Source of the DNA: Lytechinus pictus
Taxonomy: Eukaryota
DNA: 64,000 bases
Direction: 5' to 3'
Assembly: GCF_037042905.1 (NCBI RefSeq)
Contig: NC_087248.1
Location: 25,048,001 to 25,112,000 of the forward strand
Part shown: positions 1-12,000 of the stretch, piece after piece
Layout: every line of letters starts with the position of its first letter
Numbering within the stretch: the first letter of the stretch is position 1
Position numbers: made by a program

Positions 1-3000
1 TTGACAAGTACGTATATAATAGAAACAAACGATGATAGAACAAATAACGACAGACGCGTCCGTCTAGTAATGTCACATAATGTATAAAATATTACGTTCA
101 AATAATCTTTAGCATCATCTGCAAAGGTATATTTTACCTCTTCAAACCTATTTTTACCTTCTAATTATTGAAGGGATAAGCATATACTCATGATAGCGTA
201 TAATCATGATATAATCATGGTAAGTCTAAGCATACAGATGATTTCAATATATACTATAACAATCAATTAATTGAGAGACAGAATTCCGTGAAGTATTTAG
301 ATCTGATATTAAATAGTGATCTCTCATGTACATCTATGGTTGACTCTATTGTCAAAAAAGCTAATTCTCGCTTGAAATTTATATACCGGTACCAAAATTG
401 CATGAATACGAAATCCAGACGCATTTTAAGCTTTTCATTAATACAGTGTTTATTTGATTATGCTAATGCAGCATGGTACTGCAGTCTTGGAAAGGTTGAT
501 AAAAAAAGTTTATAATTATTTAAAATAAGATTGTTAGATTTATTACTTGCTTACACCCAAGAACACATGTTGGGAAGAATGAAATCGAAAAAGCTGGCCT
601 TCTTCGCATAGACTTGAGGTCGCAACAACTTATACTTCACCATGTTCATAAAATTTTCTATTCAAACGAATATCATTACATATAAAAAAAACATTGGTCC
701 AGTCATTTATTATGTAAACAAACAGCCGAAATGTTTGATTAGTGCTATCGATGTAAAAAAAACACAATAATTAAAAACGATTGGAAAAAAATTTGCTTTA
801 GCGCATTCTCTACATTACCCATATGAACCAAAATTTGTTTAGGGCAAAAAGCTCGTTTCATTTGTATTGTTCATGAGCATGGAAAATGAAAACAAGATTC
901 GCTTTTTCTCTCTGGTTCGTTTCTTTGCATTTGATTCATTGAAACTTTACATGTATATGCATTCGTATCTTATGAAATTATGATGTTGTCTAATCATCTT
1001 TAACATAATGATTTGTAATAAATGTACCTCACACAATGGCCCAAGAAGTGAAATTTGCGTCTACTGTTCAGTCAAAACTTTTATTTTTTTAAGTTTATAG
1101 CAATTTGCCACTATGCTTTATTTCTGTGTAATAAAAAATAATGTGATAAACACATCCAGAACTGAAGTTCATGAAGTTGATAGACCGTCCAACATTAACA
1201 ATAGTAGTATAGCAATCATTAATTTCAGTATGTTTTTAATGTGGTATTTTGATGGCGTACGAAATGAAGATTCTTAGGTTTATGATTTGATTGAAACAAG
1301 TATTGTGAGCACAGGACCCGTCGAGATAATAATCATAATAATATGCATTTATATAGCGCCATCTATCTAGAAATAATCTAATCCGAGGCGCACTGTTTAT
1401 TATTATTATTATTATTACTCGACTTTAGCTAGAGCTACCTTTCAACGATCCGTGCGTTTGAGAAATTAATTCTGCCGTGTATCGATTCATGTTCCTCACT
1501 TGGGTTGGGTGCAGCTCAACGTGGATAAATTGCTTGCTGAAGGAAATAACGCCATGGCTGGGATTCGAACCCACGACCCTATGTTTCAAGGCTAATACAC
1601 TGGGTCACAACGCTCTACATGTAAATTATTAGTACTTAAAATCCAACAATCGAATTCATTATAGTTTATTATGAAAATGTATTCAATAGTCAAGATATCA
1701 AATCATATTATGATTTCATTGGTGCCATTGTGTACAATGAACCACTTACAGTTCTTCCAATGCTTTGAAATTAAACAAATAAATCTATCAAAACCTAAGA
1801 ACCTTGCAAGAACATTTTTAATGTTAGTAACTCATAAAGCCCACGGTCCACCAAATAATTGCACTATAAAGGAGCATTAGTTTCATCTGACTAAAGGACT
1901 ATATTTCCCCTTAATTTTGTTTGTTTGTTTACGGTTAATAATCGTGCCGATACTTAAAAAAATACGGAGTGTGAAATGTTAGCAGATATGCAAAACACGA
2001 TTTCCTTTAAGATTTTCTATCATATAATATCATTTTTATTACCATGATTACAGCAATACTAGATTGGTGTGTTGTTTAGTGGATGATATTCGTGATAAAC
2101 TACATTTCTATATTCCCATTTCTGCATACGGATTAAAATACAATAACCTTGATTTCCTCTTTATGCTACTACTATATCAGATTGAGATTCTTCATCACGA
2201 TGAGTATCTCATCAAACGTGCATCTGCATCACGTGATTTCGCTCAGTTCATCTGTAAGATGAATTATCTGAAGAACCTCACACTCGACGGTCAGTATCAT
2301 GATGACTTCTACTCAACATCATCGTCGATGGCATCAACTACAAAGGTAATACATGTTAGGAGGTCTTTACATGTAAAAAGAGTAGAACTCACAAGCAAAC
2401 CATACAAGTTCTGATTTTTGTTCATGCTCCTCATTATGTAGCCATTAATTTGTATAATGGGGCTATGATGCCTCCTATAAAGCGAAATTGTTCATACCTT
2501 TACTGAATTATTATTCTGGTAAATTTTAATTGATTCCTTCCCATATGTTTAGGGTAATCAAGAGGCACACCTGTTTGACGGTTAAATTAAACGAACCCTT
2601 AACACGTTGACATCCATAATGCATCCGTATAAGAATAATTTTACAAAAAAAAAATAGTAATAAATCTTTATGTATGCAGCACATATGCGATAAAACACGT
2701 TACATTCCGTCTCTGCATCATTAAATGCTATTTATATTTGTGTGTAGATATGTTTAGAAGTAATAGTTCCTTTAATTGTTTATTGCAGTGAACCTAAAAT
2801 GTAGAAACCGTCTTTCCCCTTGTTGAAAAGTATGCAGATATATATGCCCCTGTATATTGTATTAACATACGAAGACAATACAAATAATGACAGATGCGTC
2901 CAAATACTACACCAATACACTAAACTATGAACAAAGAGGTGTCATTCGAATAGTTTCATCAAATCTATTCTTTATCATTTTGTCTTTATCTTTTTTTGTT

Positions 3001-9000: not shown

Positions 9001-12000
9001 ATTTATATAGCGCCATCTATCAAGACATAATCTAATCCGAGGCGCACTGTTAATTGTTATTATTATTATTACATCGGCTTTAGCTAGAGCTGCCTTTCAG
9101 CGCTCAGTGCGTTTAAGAAAATTAATTCTGCCGTGTATCCATTCATGTTCCTCACTTGGGTTGGGTGCAGCTCAACGTGGATAAATTGCTTGCTGAAATT
9201 GCATGGCTGGGATTCGTACCCAGACCTTTTGTTTCAAGACTAATATATTGGGCCACAACGCTCTACATGTAAATTATTAGTACTTATAATCTAACGATAT
9301 TATTCATTGTTTCTTATTCGAATTCATTATAGCATATTATGAAAATTTATTAAATAATTAAGATATCAAATCATATGATTTAATTGGTGCCATTGTGTAT
9401 ACAATAAACCAGTAACAGTTCTTCCAATGCTTTGAAATTAATCTATCAAAACCTAAAAACCTTGCAAGAACACTTTGAATGTTAGTAACTCAAAAAGCTT
9501 GGCACCAAAATATTATGCTATAACCAAACATTTGTTTCATCTGACTAAAATGACTATATATTTCACCTTAAGTTTTTATTGTGTATTTTCAGTTAATAAT
9601 CGGGCCGATACTTTAAAAAATACGGAGTGTTGTATGTTAGCAGATATGCAAAACGCGATTCCGATTAAGATTTTCTATTATGATAACATTTTTATTACCA
9701 TTATTACAGCCATACTAGATTGGTGTGTTGTTTTGCAGATGATATTCATGATAAATTTGATTTTAATACTCCCATTTCTGTCAACGGATTAATGTACAGT
9801 AACCTTGATTACATCTTTATGTTACTATTATATCAGATTGAGACTCTTGATCACAATGATCATCTCAGTGAACGTCCGTCTGCATCACGTGATCTCGCTC
9901 AGTTCATCTGTAAGATGAATCATCTGAAGAACCTCACACTCTACGGTCAGTATCATGATGTCTTCTACTCAACAGCATCGTCGATGGCATCAACTGCGAA
10001 GGTAACATATGTTGGGAGGTTTTACATGAAAAAAGTAGTACAAGGAAACCATACAATTTTTTTAGTGTGATAATCCTCATTCTATTGACAATGAAGTTGT
10101 CTAATGAGGCTATGATTAACTGTAGAGTGCGTCCCACAAAAAACGAAACCGAGATTTAGCGATGATTTATCATACCTTAATCATAAATACAATAGACAAA
10201 TGACCTATCAATGTAAAGCTTAGAATCTCCTCTTTCCTGTGATATTACTTAGATTATTCATTATTCATGCATGAGTGAGCAAACAAAATTGAAGAAAGGA
10301 TGCCAAAAACTCATTTGACGGGGGGTATCTGAATTTCCAAAAAAAGTCACATGCCTCACAAGTTCAATATCCGCTCTTTTATTTGATACCTTAATCACAA
10401 AAAAATGATCAAGAAGTAAGAAAGTTATGGTCCATCGAAACAATGCTTGTATTTCCATAGTTTCATTAAATAAACGTGTTTTCACCGGTTTCCAACAGAA
10501 GCTATCGCACGGTTTAACAAAACGGAGTGTCGAGTGAGTTTGAATGCTTGCCTGTAAATCCTCTTAATTTTATGAGATTATTGAAATTCAAGCCTTATTT
10601 CAAATGACCAGAACTTTGTTATTTCTTGACCATTTTCTAAAATTGAGGTATCAAATTAAAGAGCAGATATTGAACTTTTTAGAAATGTGGTTTTCCTTTT
10701 GTAACCCAGATAGAGCCCGCAAAATGACTTTTTGGTATCCCCTCTTCAAATTGTTTTTGCTCACTCATGCATGAATGATAAAAATCTAAGTAATTTCAGA
10801 TGAAAGAAGGGATTCTAAGCTTTACAATGGTAGGTCATTGTCTATTGTATTTGTCATCGATAAATCTCGGTTTCGGTTTTTGTGGGACGCACTGTATAAA
10901 GCGAAATTGTTCATATCTATACCGAATTGTTATTATATCAATTGTCAATTAATAGTAGCCATAAACCAATTGTATAAATGTTTCGGAAATTGTTTCCATT
11001 TTCGTTAAAGAATCTAGGACAAATGAGTAGGGGATTTGTGCCCCCTTATTTTATTATTGAGCTCTACCAAATGATACATAATGAACTGATGATATAAGCA
11101 TAATGCAATGAGATATATGTGTTTTTTCCTATTAATTTTCGAATCGTATTGTGTTTTGATGAGAGCTTTTTAATGCAATGGAAAACTTGCAATTTTTGGA
11201 GGTTTGCATAGCAATTAATCAACCCTTTTTATCTAAAGCTAAATTTATTTTGAAAGCACATCGAGTGTTACAACTGATTAACCCATTAACCTATTTTGCA
11301 TTACTAGTATAATCATTATGTTTCACATGACGAATAGGCCTGTATGTTTTTATCCAAAGTTGTTATCTAAATTTACTTTAGGATAAACTTACACTTCGTG
11401 ATGCAGATTAAGGTTTAAAATGTATAGCAGATTAAAACAAACATTGTTTTGTGCGGGGTTTATAGCAAAATGAATTTTCCCAAAGTGTGGTGCGTGACAT
11501 TTTCGTTATGGTCCTACTCTATATAAATCAAATTCTCTTTTTCTTACCTCGGTATTGGGATCTGTGAAATAGATTTCTTTAACATTTAAATGGGTTTTTT
11601 TTTATTCTAATTTTGATTTCAGGTGTTATAATTAAACTACAATCTTGATACACTAGGGGGCATATCAGGCTCAAAAGAGATGAAGATTACTTTTACTTAA
11701 ATTCATTTATATGAGGAATTCGTCGGCATAGTAAAAAATGAACATCAGAGTACAGATGAAAATCACAGCATGATTGTTTTTTTATTACAAAGGCAAAAAA
11801 AATTATTCGCTGCTTTCAATCTATCGCTGTTTTTTTTTGGCCTCTCTTTCCACGCTCGGCCCCCTCAAAATATTTGGTTCATTCAACCACTGAATGTGAT
11901 TGCACTGATGAATGTACTAGGGTGTGGAGTAGAAATGTGTTATTTCTTCTAGCCATACTGAGCCCGCATACCATTTTACTGCACTTCGAATGGTTACATT

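What the first reader, a model, noticed from the sequence alone, without database searches (positions are those of the whole stretch)
2181..10001. Every differing codon between exons A1 and A2 changes the amino acid
Hand alignment of the two 55-codon exons gives 17 nucleotide differences in 14 codons. All 14 change the residue and no codon differs only synonymously (three codons carry a second, silent change). Eight of the 14 fall in the first 14 codons (IEILHHDEYLIKRA vs IETLDHNDHLSERP), around the predicted beta-strand face, while the SASRDxAQFICKMN helix is nearly invariant. Inference: diversifying selection on a ligand-binding surface. Relaxed constraint is an alternative, and the counts are small.
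Basis: partly seen in the sequence, partly recalled or inferred. Interest (0 to 1): 0.68.

Follow-up and report, generated by a model that had tools for sequence, protein, structure and literature searches.

The report
Sea urchin NLR repeat exons diverging
The two exons are neighbouring leucine-rich-repeat building blocks of one sea urchin innate-immune receptor gene; they differ mainly at positions that vary across the whole gene family, which hints at selection for diversity but does not prove it.

Summary
In detail: 17 nucleotide differences in 14 codons, all 14 change the residue, and 3 codons carry a second, silent change.

The window is Lytechinus pictus. A1 (2181-2345) and A2 (9837-10001) are 165-nt phase-0 exons used in tandem, in the order B0-A1-B1-A2. 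They form the C-terminal LRR region of a Death-NACHT-LRR gene, LOC129258778. They are not alternative exons.

The "no silent-only codon" pattern is not dN/dS above 1. The three silent changes match the neutral expectation: dN 0.117, dS 0.090, ratio 1.29, Fisher p = 1. In codons 1-14 the ratio is 0.99.

The duplicated flanking intron gives a larger neutral yardstick (191 of 1410 aligned sites differ). Against it, 42 scaffold codons are constrained (pN 0.041, p = 0.005). Thirteen family-hypervariable codons differ at 10 of 13 (pN 0.31, p = 0.009). That excess reaches p < 0.05 under only 2 of 5 site definitions.

Across 187 distinct family units the hot spots are positions 5, 7, 36, then 38, 54, 9 and 8. 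These alternate with the conserved hydrophobic positions of the LRR motif.

Diversifying selection is plausible but unproven. No structure model could be made.

The parts
2181..2345 (+). Exon A1: 165 nt, phase 0-0, 55 codons. By motif it encodes two leucine-rich repeats (about residues 1-29 and 30-55).
   Evidence: cag acceptor, AAG|gta donor. It is 100% identical over 55 aa to P0057, XP_063954785.1, LOC129258778 isoform X2 of Lytechinus pictus.
6471..6653 (+). Exon B1: 183 nt, phase 0-0, 61 codons. It is the related second type of two-repeat module and lies between A1 and A2 in the protein.
   Evidence: It shares 28 of 51 aligned residues with A1. Pfam LRR_4 gives E = 0.0085, below the cut-off.
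9837..10001 (+). Exon A2: 165 nt, phase 0-0, 55 codons, paralogue of A1. They are 148 of 165 nt and 41 of 55 aa identical.
689..2180 (+). Intron block upstream of A1 that was duplicated together with the exon. Its partner is 8369-9836. A further colinear piece, 122-195, matches 8092-8183.
   Evidence: Of 1410 aligned columns, 191 are mismatches (13.5%, JC 0.149), with 82 gap columns.
8369..9836 (+). Intron block upstream of A2, the partner of 689-2180.
2346..2469 (+). Short duplicated stretch downstream of A1. Its partner is 10002-10116, where homology ends at a repeat element starting near 10119.
   Evidence: 31 of 115 aligned columns mismatch (27%).
13218..13594 (+). Next coding exon of the same gene, the C-terminal region after the repeats. 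No Pfam family matches it. It ends with two bases of a split Arg codon.
   Evidence: 126 of 127 residues identical to P0057; no family; donor AG|gtatga.
14345..14446 (+). Following coding exon. A last short coding piece of about 5-6 codons was not located.
   Evidence: tblastn of the P0057 tail, plus reading of the splice sites.

Best explanation
A1 and A2 are two tandem copies of a 165-nt exon module in the C-terminal leucine-rich-repeat region of a sea urchin Death-NACHT-LRR (NLR-type) innate-immune receptor gene, L. pictus LOC129258778. Each module encodes two leucine-rich repeats. The module and about 2 kb of upstream intron were duplicated together. Both copies are spliced in series (B0-A1-B1-A2) into one protein.

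Since the duplication, the roughly 42 scaffold codons have been held by purifying selection. These are the hydrophobic core positions and the two predicted helices. A dozen positions have diverged at least as fast as the intron. They alternate with the core residues of the first repeat's strand and following loop, and with those of the second repeat's strand. The same positions are hypervariable across hundreds of copies of the module in Lytechinus and Strongylocentrotus.

The most likely mechanism is a rigid solenoid scaffold carrying a variable recognition surface. That surface would be diversified by point substitution, favoured or at least tolerated by selection, and probably by exchange of units among paralogues.

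Shown: gene identity, exon structure, the duplication, scaffold constraint, and the location and family-wide recurrence of variable sites.
Inferred: that these sites are surface-exposed on the concave face, that they bind ligand, and that selection is positive rather than merely absent.
For: Identity:
- The A1 peptide found 100 proteins among 102 candidates. Every named one comes from L. pictus, L. variegatus or S. purpuratus, and many carry Death and NACHT.
- P0057 is 100% identical over A1. It scores NACHT 78.1 bits (cut-off 26.7) and Death 30.6 bits (cut-off 22.6). P0028 scores LRR_14 49.7 bits (cut-off 40).
- tblastn places A1, B1, A2 and two C-terminal exons in order. Both RefSeq isoforms contain A1 and A2.

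Duplication:
- 689-2469 aligns with 8369-10116 at 80.3% over 1842 columns, gaps included.

Constraint:
- The 42 non-hypervariable codons have pN 0.041 (4 changes on 97.8 sites), against 191 of 1410 in the intron (p = 0.0046).
- They show 4 differences at 84 first and second codon positions, against an intron-window mean of 10.84. Only 2.6% of 1246 windows are as low.

Variable sites:
- Thirteen codons have entropy of at least 1 bit in 106 distinct L. variegatus and S. purpuratus units. A1 and A2 differ at 10 of the 13, giving pN 0.314 (p = 0.0087).
- They show 9 differences at 26 first and second positions, against an intron mean of 3.40; 1.4% of windows reach that.

Family:
- There are 579 unit matches in 100 proteins. 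Of these, 226 are full 55-aa units and 187 are distinct.
- Positions 5, 7 and 36 carry 14-15 residue types (2.4-2.8 bits), while 28 of 55 positions are at or below 0.3 bits.
- 974 unit pairs have identical scaffolds yet differ at a mean 7.1 of the 13 sites.
- In 98 distinct S. purpuratus units the top positions are again 5, 7, 8, 36 and 38.
Against: - Pairwise dN/dS is 1.29 (Fisher p = 1). In the first 14 codons it is 0.99, with dS 0.289. This fits a locally older or faster-mutating segment as well as it fits selection.
- The excess over the intron is not significant for 3 of 5 site definitions: canonical x positions p = 0.37, S. purpuratus top-13 p = 0.20, S. purpuratus positions of at least 2.5 bits p = 0.09. 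I tried several definitions.
- The neutral yardstick is uncertain. The short downstream block diverges by 27% (31 of 115), and intron 100-nt windows range from 66% to 93% identity.
- The replacements are not unusually radical: BLOSUM62 mean -0.14 against an expected -0.39.
- Nine Diadema units show no enrichment at these sites (0.89 against 0.78 bits, p = 0.29).
- A1 and A2 each have closer relatives in other genes: 51 of 55 and 54 of 55 residues, against 41 of 55 to each other. They are not sisters in a weakly supported tree. Exchange among units may therefore have imported differences.
- Single exons A1 and A2 match no Pfam LRR model. No solved structure matches by sequence. No 3D model was obtained.
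Confidence: 0.6

Rival explanations
1. Relaxed constraint only. The variable positions are simply free to drift, and the scaffold is under purifying selection. The all-nonsynonymous look is a small-sample effect, with no selection for diversity.
For: dN/dS is 1.29 with p = 1, and 0.99 in codons 1-14. Three of the five site definitions give no significant excess over the intron. 12.3% of intron 42-nt windows are as divergent as the first 14 codons. The replacements are of ordinary radicalness.
Against: Point estimates of pN at the variable sets are 1.5-2.3 times the intron rate under all 5 definitions. 10 of the 13 Lytechinus-defined hot codons differ, where roughly 4 would be expected at the intron rate (the expectation is my arithmetic). 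Units with identical scaffolds are already saturated at the hot sites, which is hard to reach by drift alone if the units are as young as their scaffolds suggest.
Confidence: 0.3
2. Mosaic history. Gene conversion or unequal crossing-over among the many near-identical units pasted foreign variable-site combinations into A1 or A2. The exon differences would then be older than the intron duplication and need no accelerated substitution in this gene.
For: Each exon has closer relatives in other genes than in its partner, and the two are not sisters in the unit tree. [quoted passage not shown] Silent divergence is raised along with nonsynonymous divergence in codons 1-14 (2 changes on 8.3 sites). 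Conversion would leave no trace on the invariant scaffold.
Against: Whole-exon silent divergence (0.085) is not above the intron (0.135). No donor DNA could be examined. Shuffling explains the distribution of variants, not their origin or maintenance.
Confidence: 0.25
3. One of the two exons is a decaying, unused duplicate (a pseudo-exon) evolving neutrally.
For: Overall exon divergence (10.3%) is not significantly below the intron (13.5%; p = 0.28). A1 and A2 are the least similar within-protein pair among 54 family proteins.
Against: Both frames are open and both keep their splice signals. Scaffold codons are significantly conserved relative to the intron. Both exons are in both RefSeq isoforms. 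Each has near-identical counterparts in other genes.
Confidence: 0.03
4. A1 and A2 are mutually exclusive alternative exons that give two receptor variants.
For: They have equal length, phase 0-0 and near-identical splice sites. Annotated L. variegatus isoforms of a related gene differ by exactly one 55-aa unit (P0027 against P0042).
Against: Both exons occur in series, separated by B1, in both annotated isoforms of this gene. Family proteins carry 1-13 such units in tandem.
Confidence: 0.03

Closest known systems
Sea urchin lineage-specific NLR expansion (Death-NACHT-LRR genes). Passages read in PMC2858798, PMC3879445 and PMC4852459. The original descriptions (Hibino et al. 2006; Rast et al. 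2006) are recalled, not seen.
   Same: The architecture matches: Death, NACHT and C-terminal LRRs. It is a large multigene family confined to sea urchins in the searches run here.
   Different: The passages I read give gene counts and domain architectures. They say nothing about the 55/61-aa exon modules or their hypervariable positions.
Sea urchin Toll-like receptor families under positive selection (Buckley & Rast 2012, PMC3367398; passages read).
   Same: Same animals and the same type of repeat. PAML M7/M8 there placed most selected sites in the LRR beta-strands of the concave face, and the authors weighed relaxed constraint against diversifying selection, as here.
   Different: TLR ectodomains are encoded without this exon modularity and were tested with codon models. 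Here only one pair could be tested at the DNA level. That paper contains the term NLR 0 times.
Exon-modular LRR domains of vertebrate NLRs such as NLRP3 (Hoss et al. 2019, PMC6642158; passages read).
   Same: One exon encodes two LRRs, with a constant exon border relative to the strand and constant phase. Whole units can therefore be added or skipped. L. variegatus isoforms differ by exactly one unit.
   Different: The exons here are 165 nt (A) and 183 nt (B) rather than 171 nt. Repeats are about 29+26 residues rather than 28+29. Unit number ranges from 1 to 13 across paralogues.
Highly variable plant NLRs (hvNLR; Prigozhin & Krasileva 2021, PMC8226289; passages read).
   Same: Periodic entropy spikes fall at the x positions of LxxLxLxx on an otherwise conserved LRR. 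Nine positions per 55-aa unit reach 1.5 bits or more.
   Different: The plant criterion is applied to near-allelic series of one receptor. Here the entropy is taken across paralogous repeat units. The nucleotide-binding domain is NACHT, not NB-ARC.
High-internal-conservation (HIC) repeats of fungal NLRs (Dyrka et al. 2014, PMC4986451; Ament-Velasquez et al. 2025, PMC12222747; passages read).
   Same: Near-identical repeat units carry a few hypervariable codons. 23 of 54 family proteins have mean unit identity of at least 85%. Repeat number varies, and shuffling of units is suspected.
   Different: The fungal repeats are WD40, ANK or TPR within a single exon; no LRRs were found in fungal NLRs (PMC4986451). 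Here each unit is a separate exon. The gene in this window is the least internally conserved of the set (74.5%).

Membership tests
Metazoan NLR (NACHT plus LRR), sea urchin Death-NACHT-LRR type | Central NACHT NTPase domain | tested here: met
   P0057 scores Pfam NACHT 78.1 bits (cut-off 26.7) at residues 478-632. This domain lies upstream of the window, so it is shown for the database protein that carries exon A1 at 100% identity, not for window DNA.
Metazoan NLR (NACHT plus LRR), sea urchin Death-NACHT-LRR type | C-terminal leucine-rich repeats | tested here: inconclusive
   LRR_14 scores 26.9 bits on P0057, below the cut-off of 40, but 49.7 bits on the paralogue P0028, above it. Exons A1 and A2 alone match no family at E up to 10. 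B1 matches LRR_4 at E = 0.0085, below the cut-off.
Metazoan NLR (NACHT plus LRR), sea urchin Death-NACHT-LRR type | N-terminal death-fold effector domain | tested here: met
   Death scores 30.6 bits (cut-off 22.6) at residues 312-392 of P0057.
Metazoan NLR (NACHT plus LRR), sea urchin Death-NACHT-LRR type | The window exons belong to that gene | tested here: met
   tblastn of P0057 places residues 1042-1098, 1092-1159, 1158-1213 and 1214-1340 at A1, B1, A2 and 13218-13598, in that order. The tail exon was located.
Leucine-rich repeat solenoid | LxxLxLxxN-type motif with conserved hydrophobic positions, repeat length 20-30 | tested here: met
   Among 187 units, positions 1, 4, 10, 30, 33 and 35 are at least 96% I or L. 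Position 9 is N or D in 161 units. Position 6 is H in 107 and L in 62. The two repeats are about 29 and 26 residues. The register assignment is my reading.
Leucine-rich repeat solenoid | Curved solenoid fold with the strand face concave and variable x residues exposed | not testable with these tools
No solved relative was found by sequence. The Atlas holds no model.
Receptors under diversifying selection at LRR surface sites | Nonsynonymous rate above the neutral rate at specific sites | tested here: inconclusive
   Pairwise dN/dS is 1.29, p = 1. Against the intron, p < 0.05 for 2 of 5 site sets and not significant for 3. Codon site models on the whole family need DNA that no tool here could fetch.
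Highly variable NLR (plant hvNLR criterion) | At least 10 alignment positions with Shannon entropy of 1.5 bits or more, clustered on the LRR | tested here: inconclusive
   Nine positions per 55-aa unit reach 1.5 bits (5, 6, 7, 8, 9, 36, 38, 47, 54). The alignment is of paralogous units, not of alleles of one receptor, so the criterion does not transfer directly.
High-internal-conservation repeats (fungal NLR definition: over 85% identity over at least 100 aa) | Internal repeat identity above 85% | tested here: not met
   A1 and A2 are 74.5% identical, the lowest of 54 proteins. 23 of the 54 family proteins do reach a mean of at least 85%.

The most novel reading that the evidence does not exclude
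Camarodont sea urchins may run a cassette system in their NLR family. Hundreds of near-identical two-LRR exon modules share an almost fixed scaffold and carry about a dozen hypervariable surface positions. These modules would be multiplied, exchanged between genes and sometimes skipped in splicing, so that recognition surfaces are assembled combinatorially in the germline. This would be an animal, exon-based counterpart of the high-internal-conservation repeats of fungal NLRs, and it would echo lamprey VLR cassettes (VLR is recalled, not checked). A1 and A2 would be two diverged cassettes held apart by selection.
Probability: 0.3. Interest if true: 0.65.

Novelty: new member of a known kind. 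Interest (0 to 1): 0.4.

Why it matters
Sea urchins rely on very large innate receptor families, and what their roughly 100-200 NLRs recognise is unknown. If the hot positions of this exon module are a selected recognition surface, they give a concrete map. Positions 5, 7, 8, 36 and 38 of each 55-residue unit could be used for ligand hunting, for comparing paralogues and species, and for asking whether animals diversify NLR sensors by shuffling repeat units as fungi do.

The finding also carries a caution. 'Every changed codon is nonsynonymous' can coexist with dN/dS near 1. The co-duplicated intron is a far better neutral yardstick than three silent changes.

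Tried and rejected
- Structure model. The AlphaFold job on alignment A1 (48 family proteins, P0028 first) was interrupted. No mapping of variable sites on a model and no fold search were possible.
- ESM Atlas. The C-terminal exon is not held. P0028 is held without a model, and feature hits to LRR families score only 0.85, so they are leads only.
- Solved structures by sequence. P0028 gave only weak LRR hits (4ow2 at 1.9e-5, 3j0a at 0.013). The family profile gave 0 hits. 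Exon A1 gave only chance-level hits with E above 1.
- Pfam on single exons A1 and A2 found nothing.
- Radicalness of replacements is no different from random.
- Diadema units (n = 9) do not share the hot spots.
- B-type units of exactly 61 aa and high score numbered only 7, too few for a variability profile.
- Rfam and tRNA scans of the window found nothing.
- Literature. Six searches found no paper on hypervariable positions in sea urchin NLR LRRs. Hibino et al. 2006 is not held. Supplements were not seen and could hold NLR-specific analyses.
- DNA of paralogous exons could not be fetched.
- Rejected readings: pseudo-exon and mutually exclusive exons (see rival explanations).

Full report
**What is at the coordinates.**
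The two stretches are as described. A1 is 2181-2345 and A2 is 9837-10001. Each is 165 nt, preceded by a polypyrimidine tract and cag, and followed by AAG|gta. They differ at 17 nucleotides in 14 codons. All 14 codons change the residue. Codons 11, 14 and 54 each carry one extra silent change. Eight changed codons lie in codons 1-14, and codons 15-28 differ only at codon 20. The window has no N.

**What gene it is.**
- The A1 peptide, searched alone against longer proteins, found 100 proteins among 102 candidates. All named ones are from the sea urchins Lytechinus pictus, L. variegatus and Strongylocentrotus purpuratus. Many carry Death and NACHT domains.
- One protein is 100% identical to A1: P0057, XP_063954785.1, LOC129258778 isoform X2 of L. 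pictus. The window is therefore sea urchin DNA, not human.
- Pfam on P0057 gives NACHT 78.1 bits, Death 30.6 bits and LRR_14 26.9 bits, the last below its cut-off of 40. The paralogue P0028 reaches 49.7 bits for LRR_14.
- Mapping P0057 on the window gives, in order: A1; a related 61-codon exon B1 (6471-6653); A2; a C-terminal exon (13218-13594); and a further exon (14345-14446).
- In the protein the order is B0-A1-B1-A2, and B0 lies upstream of the window. Both annotated isoforms contain A1 and A2. They differ only by a 273-residue N-terminal extension.
- A1 and A2 are therefore successive repeat modules of one protein, not alternatives.
Every search with window sequence was made exon by exon, and the joined step was left out.

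**The duplication.**
- A self-comparison aligns 689-2469 with 8369-10116 at 80.3% identity over 1842 columns, gaps included. A further colinear piece, 122-195, aligns with 8092-8183. Exon and about 2 kb of upstream intron were copied together.
- In a global alignment the upstream intron shows 191 mismatches in 1410 aligned columns (13.5%, JC 0.149). The short downstream block shows 31 in 115 (27%). The exon shows 17 in 165 (10.3%).
- The exon as a whole is not significantly more conserved than its intron (p = 0.28).

**Does 'all 14 codons nonsynonymous' mean selection?**
- By Nei-Gojobori counting there are 14 nonsynonymous changes on 129.7 sites and 3 synonymous changes on 35.3 sites. This gives dN 0.117, dS 0.090, ratio 1.29, Fisher p = 1.0.
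- Three silent changes is about what 17 random hits would give. The unusual feature is that all three share a codon with a replacement.
- Under uniform random mutation, 'no purely silent codon' occurs in 1.7-3.4% of simulations.
- Two of the three silent changes are at CpG sites.
- In codons 1-14 both rates are high and equal (dN 0.286, dS 0.289, ratio 0.99). In codons 15-55 both are low (0.065 and 0.038).
- The cluster of 10 differences in the first 42 nt is matched or exceeded by 12.3% of 42-nt windows of the duplicated intron. The 7 differences in the remaining 123 nt are matched by only 2.1% of windows, and by 0 of 11 non-overlapping windows.
- The clearest pairwise signal is therefore constraint on the last 41 codons, not acceleration of the first 14.

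**The family view.**
- A profile of A1 and A2 finds 579 unit matches in the 100 proteins. Of these, 226 are full 55-residue units and 187 are distinct.
- 28 of the 55 positions have entropy of 0.3 bits or less. Positions 5, 7 and 36 hold 14-15 residue types (2.4-2.8 bits). Next come 38, 54, 9, 8, 47, 6, 12, 3, 34, 11 and 20.
- The 14 positions where A1 and A2 differ have mean entropy 1.49 bits, against 0.37 for the rest (p = 1.4e-6).
- Positions 1, 4, 10, 30, 33 and 35 are almost always I or L, and position 9 is mostly N or D. I read each exon as two leucine-rich repeats of about 29 and 26 residues. The strongest hot spots are then the x positions that alternate with the core residues of the two strands. 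This is the surface-exposed concave pattern of LRRs, a general property restated in PMC8226289. The register is my inference.
- Differences at 20, 42, 47 and 54 fall in the two stretches whose hydrophobic spacing suggests helices. Position 29 lies just after the first of these stretches. These five changes are mostly conservative.
- In 98 distinct S. purpuratus units, mostly 56 residues long, the top positions are again 5, 7, 8 and 36 (3.0-3.1 bits) and 38 (2.8 bits). In 9 Diadema units they are not.
- 974 pairs of units have identical scaffolds yet differ at a mean 7.1 of 13 hot sites.
- There are 178 distinct hot-site combinations among the 187 units, and the two halves of the unit are almost unlinked (Spearman 0.098).
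- Units per protein range from 1 to 13. Mean identity of units within a protein has a median of 84%. It is at least 85% in 23 of 54 proteins, and this gene is the lowest at 74.5%.
- By HMMER against 1.84 billion representatives, only 69 proteins match A1 at E of 1e-3 or better. Of 10 looked up, 9 have a named member, and all of those are sea urchins.

**A better test with the window's own DNA.**
- I defined hot codons from other species only: 106 distinct L. variegatus and S. purpuratus units, entropy of at least 1 bit, 13 codons.
- A1 and A2 differ at 10 of the 13. pN is 0.314, against 0.135 in the intron (p = 0.0087; p = 0.019 with both intron blocks).
- The other 42 codons have pN 0.041 (p = 0.0046).
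- An empirical null laid the same site pattern over 1246 intron windows. It gives 1.4% for the excess, 2.6% for the deficit and 0.16% for the contrast.
- The result depends on the site set:

| Site set | Codons | p against intron |
|---|---|---|
| L. variegatus + S. purpuratus units, at least 1 bit | 13 | 0.0087 |
| All-family units, at least 1.5 bits | 9 | 0.03 |
| S. purpuratus, at least 2.5 bits | 5 | 0.09 |
| S. purpuratus top 13 | 13 | 0.20 |
| Canonical x positions | 10 | 0.37 |

- An earlier cut at 1.5 bits on the other-species units gave 6 codons and p = 0.14.
- All point estimates are above the intron rate (0.20-0.31).
- The evidence is suggestive and not corrected for the several definitions tried.

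**Complications.**
- A1 and A2 are 41 of 55 identical. A1 is 51 of 55 identical to a unit of the L. pictus gene LOC129258779, and A2 is 54 of 55 identical to a unit of LOC129259275.
- In a weakly supported tree of the 187 units they are not sisters.
- Exchange of units or short tracts between paralogues would be invisible on the invariant scaffold. It could have imported differences, so the intron may not date the exon differences.
- The replacements are no more radical than random.
- No 3D model could be obtained, and no solved structure is close by sequence.

**Comparison with what is known.**
- The sea urchin NLR expansion and the Death-NACHT-LRR architecture are established (passages in PMC2858798, PMC3879445 and PMC4852459).
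- Positive selection on LRR strand positions is documented for sea urchin TLRs (PMC3367398, passages). That paper does not mention NLRs.
- Two-LRR exon modularity with a fixed border is described for vertebrate NLRs (PMC6642158, passages).
- Entropy spikes at LxxLxLxx x positions define plant hvNLRs (PMC8226289, passages).
- Near-identical repeats with a few selected hypervariable codons are known from fungal NLRs, which lack LRRs (PMC4986451 and PMC12222747, passages).
- In zebrafish NLR-B30.2 genes the LRRs are reported as not particularly variable (PMC4852459, passages), so the pattern here is not a general NLR property.
- Six searches found no description of these hot positions in sea urchin NLRs. 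The founding papers and all supplements were not available to me.

**Verdict.**
Differences sit at family-wide variable positions that are probably on the surface of a conserved scaffold. At those positions divergence is at least neutral and possibly faster.
- The headline statistic does not show positive selection. Relaxed constraint or unit exchange cannot be excluded with one pair of exons.
- This is a new, well-defined example of a known kind of receptor diversification. It offers a testable map of candidate recognition positions.

Noticed in passing
window 61062-63770 (- strand): A non-LTR retrotransposon. One ORF carries an endonuclease/exonuclease/phosphatase domain (29.5 bits) and the adjoining ORF a reverse transcriptase (123.8 bits). 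The two are separated by a stop at 62144/62145.
   Followed up: partly
window 31063-33726 (+) and 210-515 (+): Further retroelement remnants: a PHD-finger ORF (29.3 bits), a reverse-transcriptase fragment at 33043-33726 (50.1 bits), and an ORF at 210-515 inside the intron upstream of A1 that looks like the tail of a reverse transcriptase. That last reading is mine; Pfam gave no significant hit.
   Followed up: partly
window 10119-10899 and 58124-58948: A repeat of about 0.8 kb that matches its second copy in both orientations (85% direct, 75% inverted), so it is internally symmetric. It starts 3 bases after the end of the A2-side duplicated block, which may be why homology downstream of the A exons stops there.
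   Followed up: no
window 51298-51773 and 52032-52245; 59069-59231: A 49-bp satellite (9.9 and 4.4 copies, about 80% matches) and a 15-bp tandem repeat (10.9 copies).
   Followed up: no
window 42861-46014 vs 53992-57129; 15851-17137 vs 17494-18792: Large direct duplications at about 92% identity, with several shorter related copies between 46.4 and 51.2 kb. No NLR-like coding sequence was found there.
   Followed up: no
position 6 of the 55-residue unit (window codons at 2196-2198 and 9852-9854): At the place where the LRR motif expects a buried leucine, 107 of 187 distinct units, including A1 and A2, have histidine and 62 have leucine. A histidine at a core strand position is unusual and unexplained.
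   Followed up: no
P0027 vs P0042 (L. variegatus LOC121414360 isoforms): Two annotated isoforms differ by a clean deletion of residues 371-425, exactly one 55-residue unit. This suggests that single module exons can be skipped.
   Followed up: partly
exon B1 6471-6653 and the upstream B0 in P0057: The B-type pair of the same gene differs at 13 of 61 residues, but none in the first eight. Its differences lie at 9, 12-14, 28, 29, 35, 38-41, 51 and 53. The first strand is therefore variable in A-type units but fixed in B-type units. Only 7 comparable B units were available for a family profile.
   Followed up: partly
P0101 (isoform X1 of LOC129258778), outside the window: The 273-residue N-terminal extension of isoform X1 begins with a near-repeat of the start of isoform X2. 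This looks like a duplicated 5' coding region.
   Followed up: no
intron 4970-6432 vs 7204-8071: The intron upstream of B1 shares 76-79% identical stretches with the far-upstream part of the intron before A2. A-type and B-type units therefore descend from one exon-plus-intron ancestor.
   Followed up: partly
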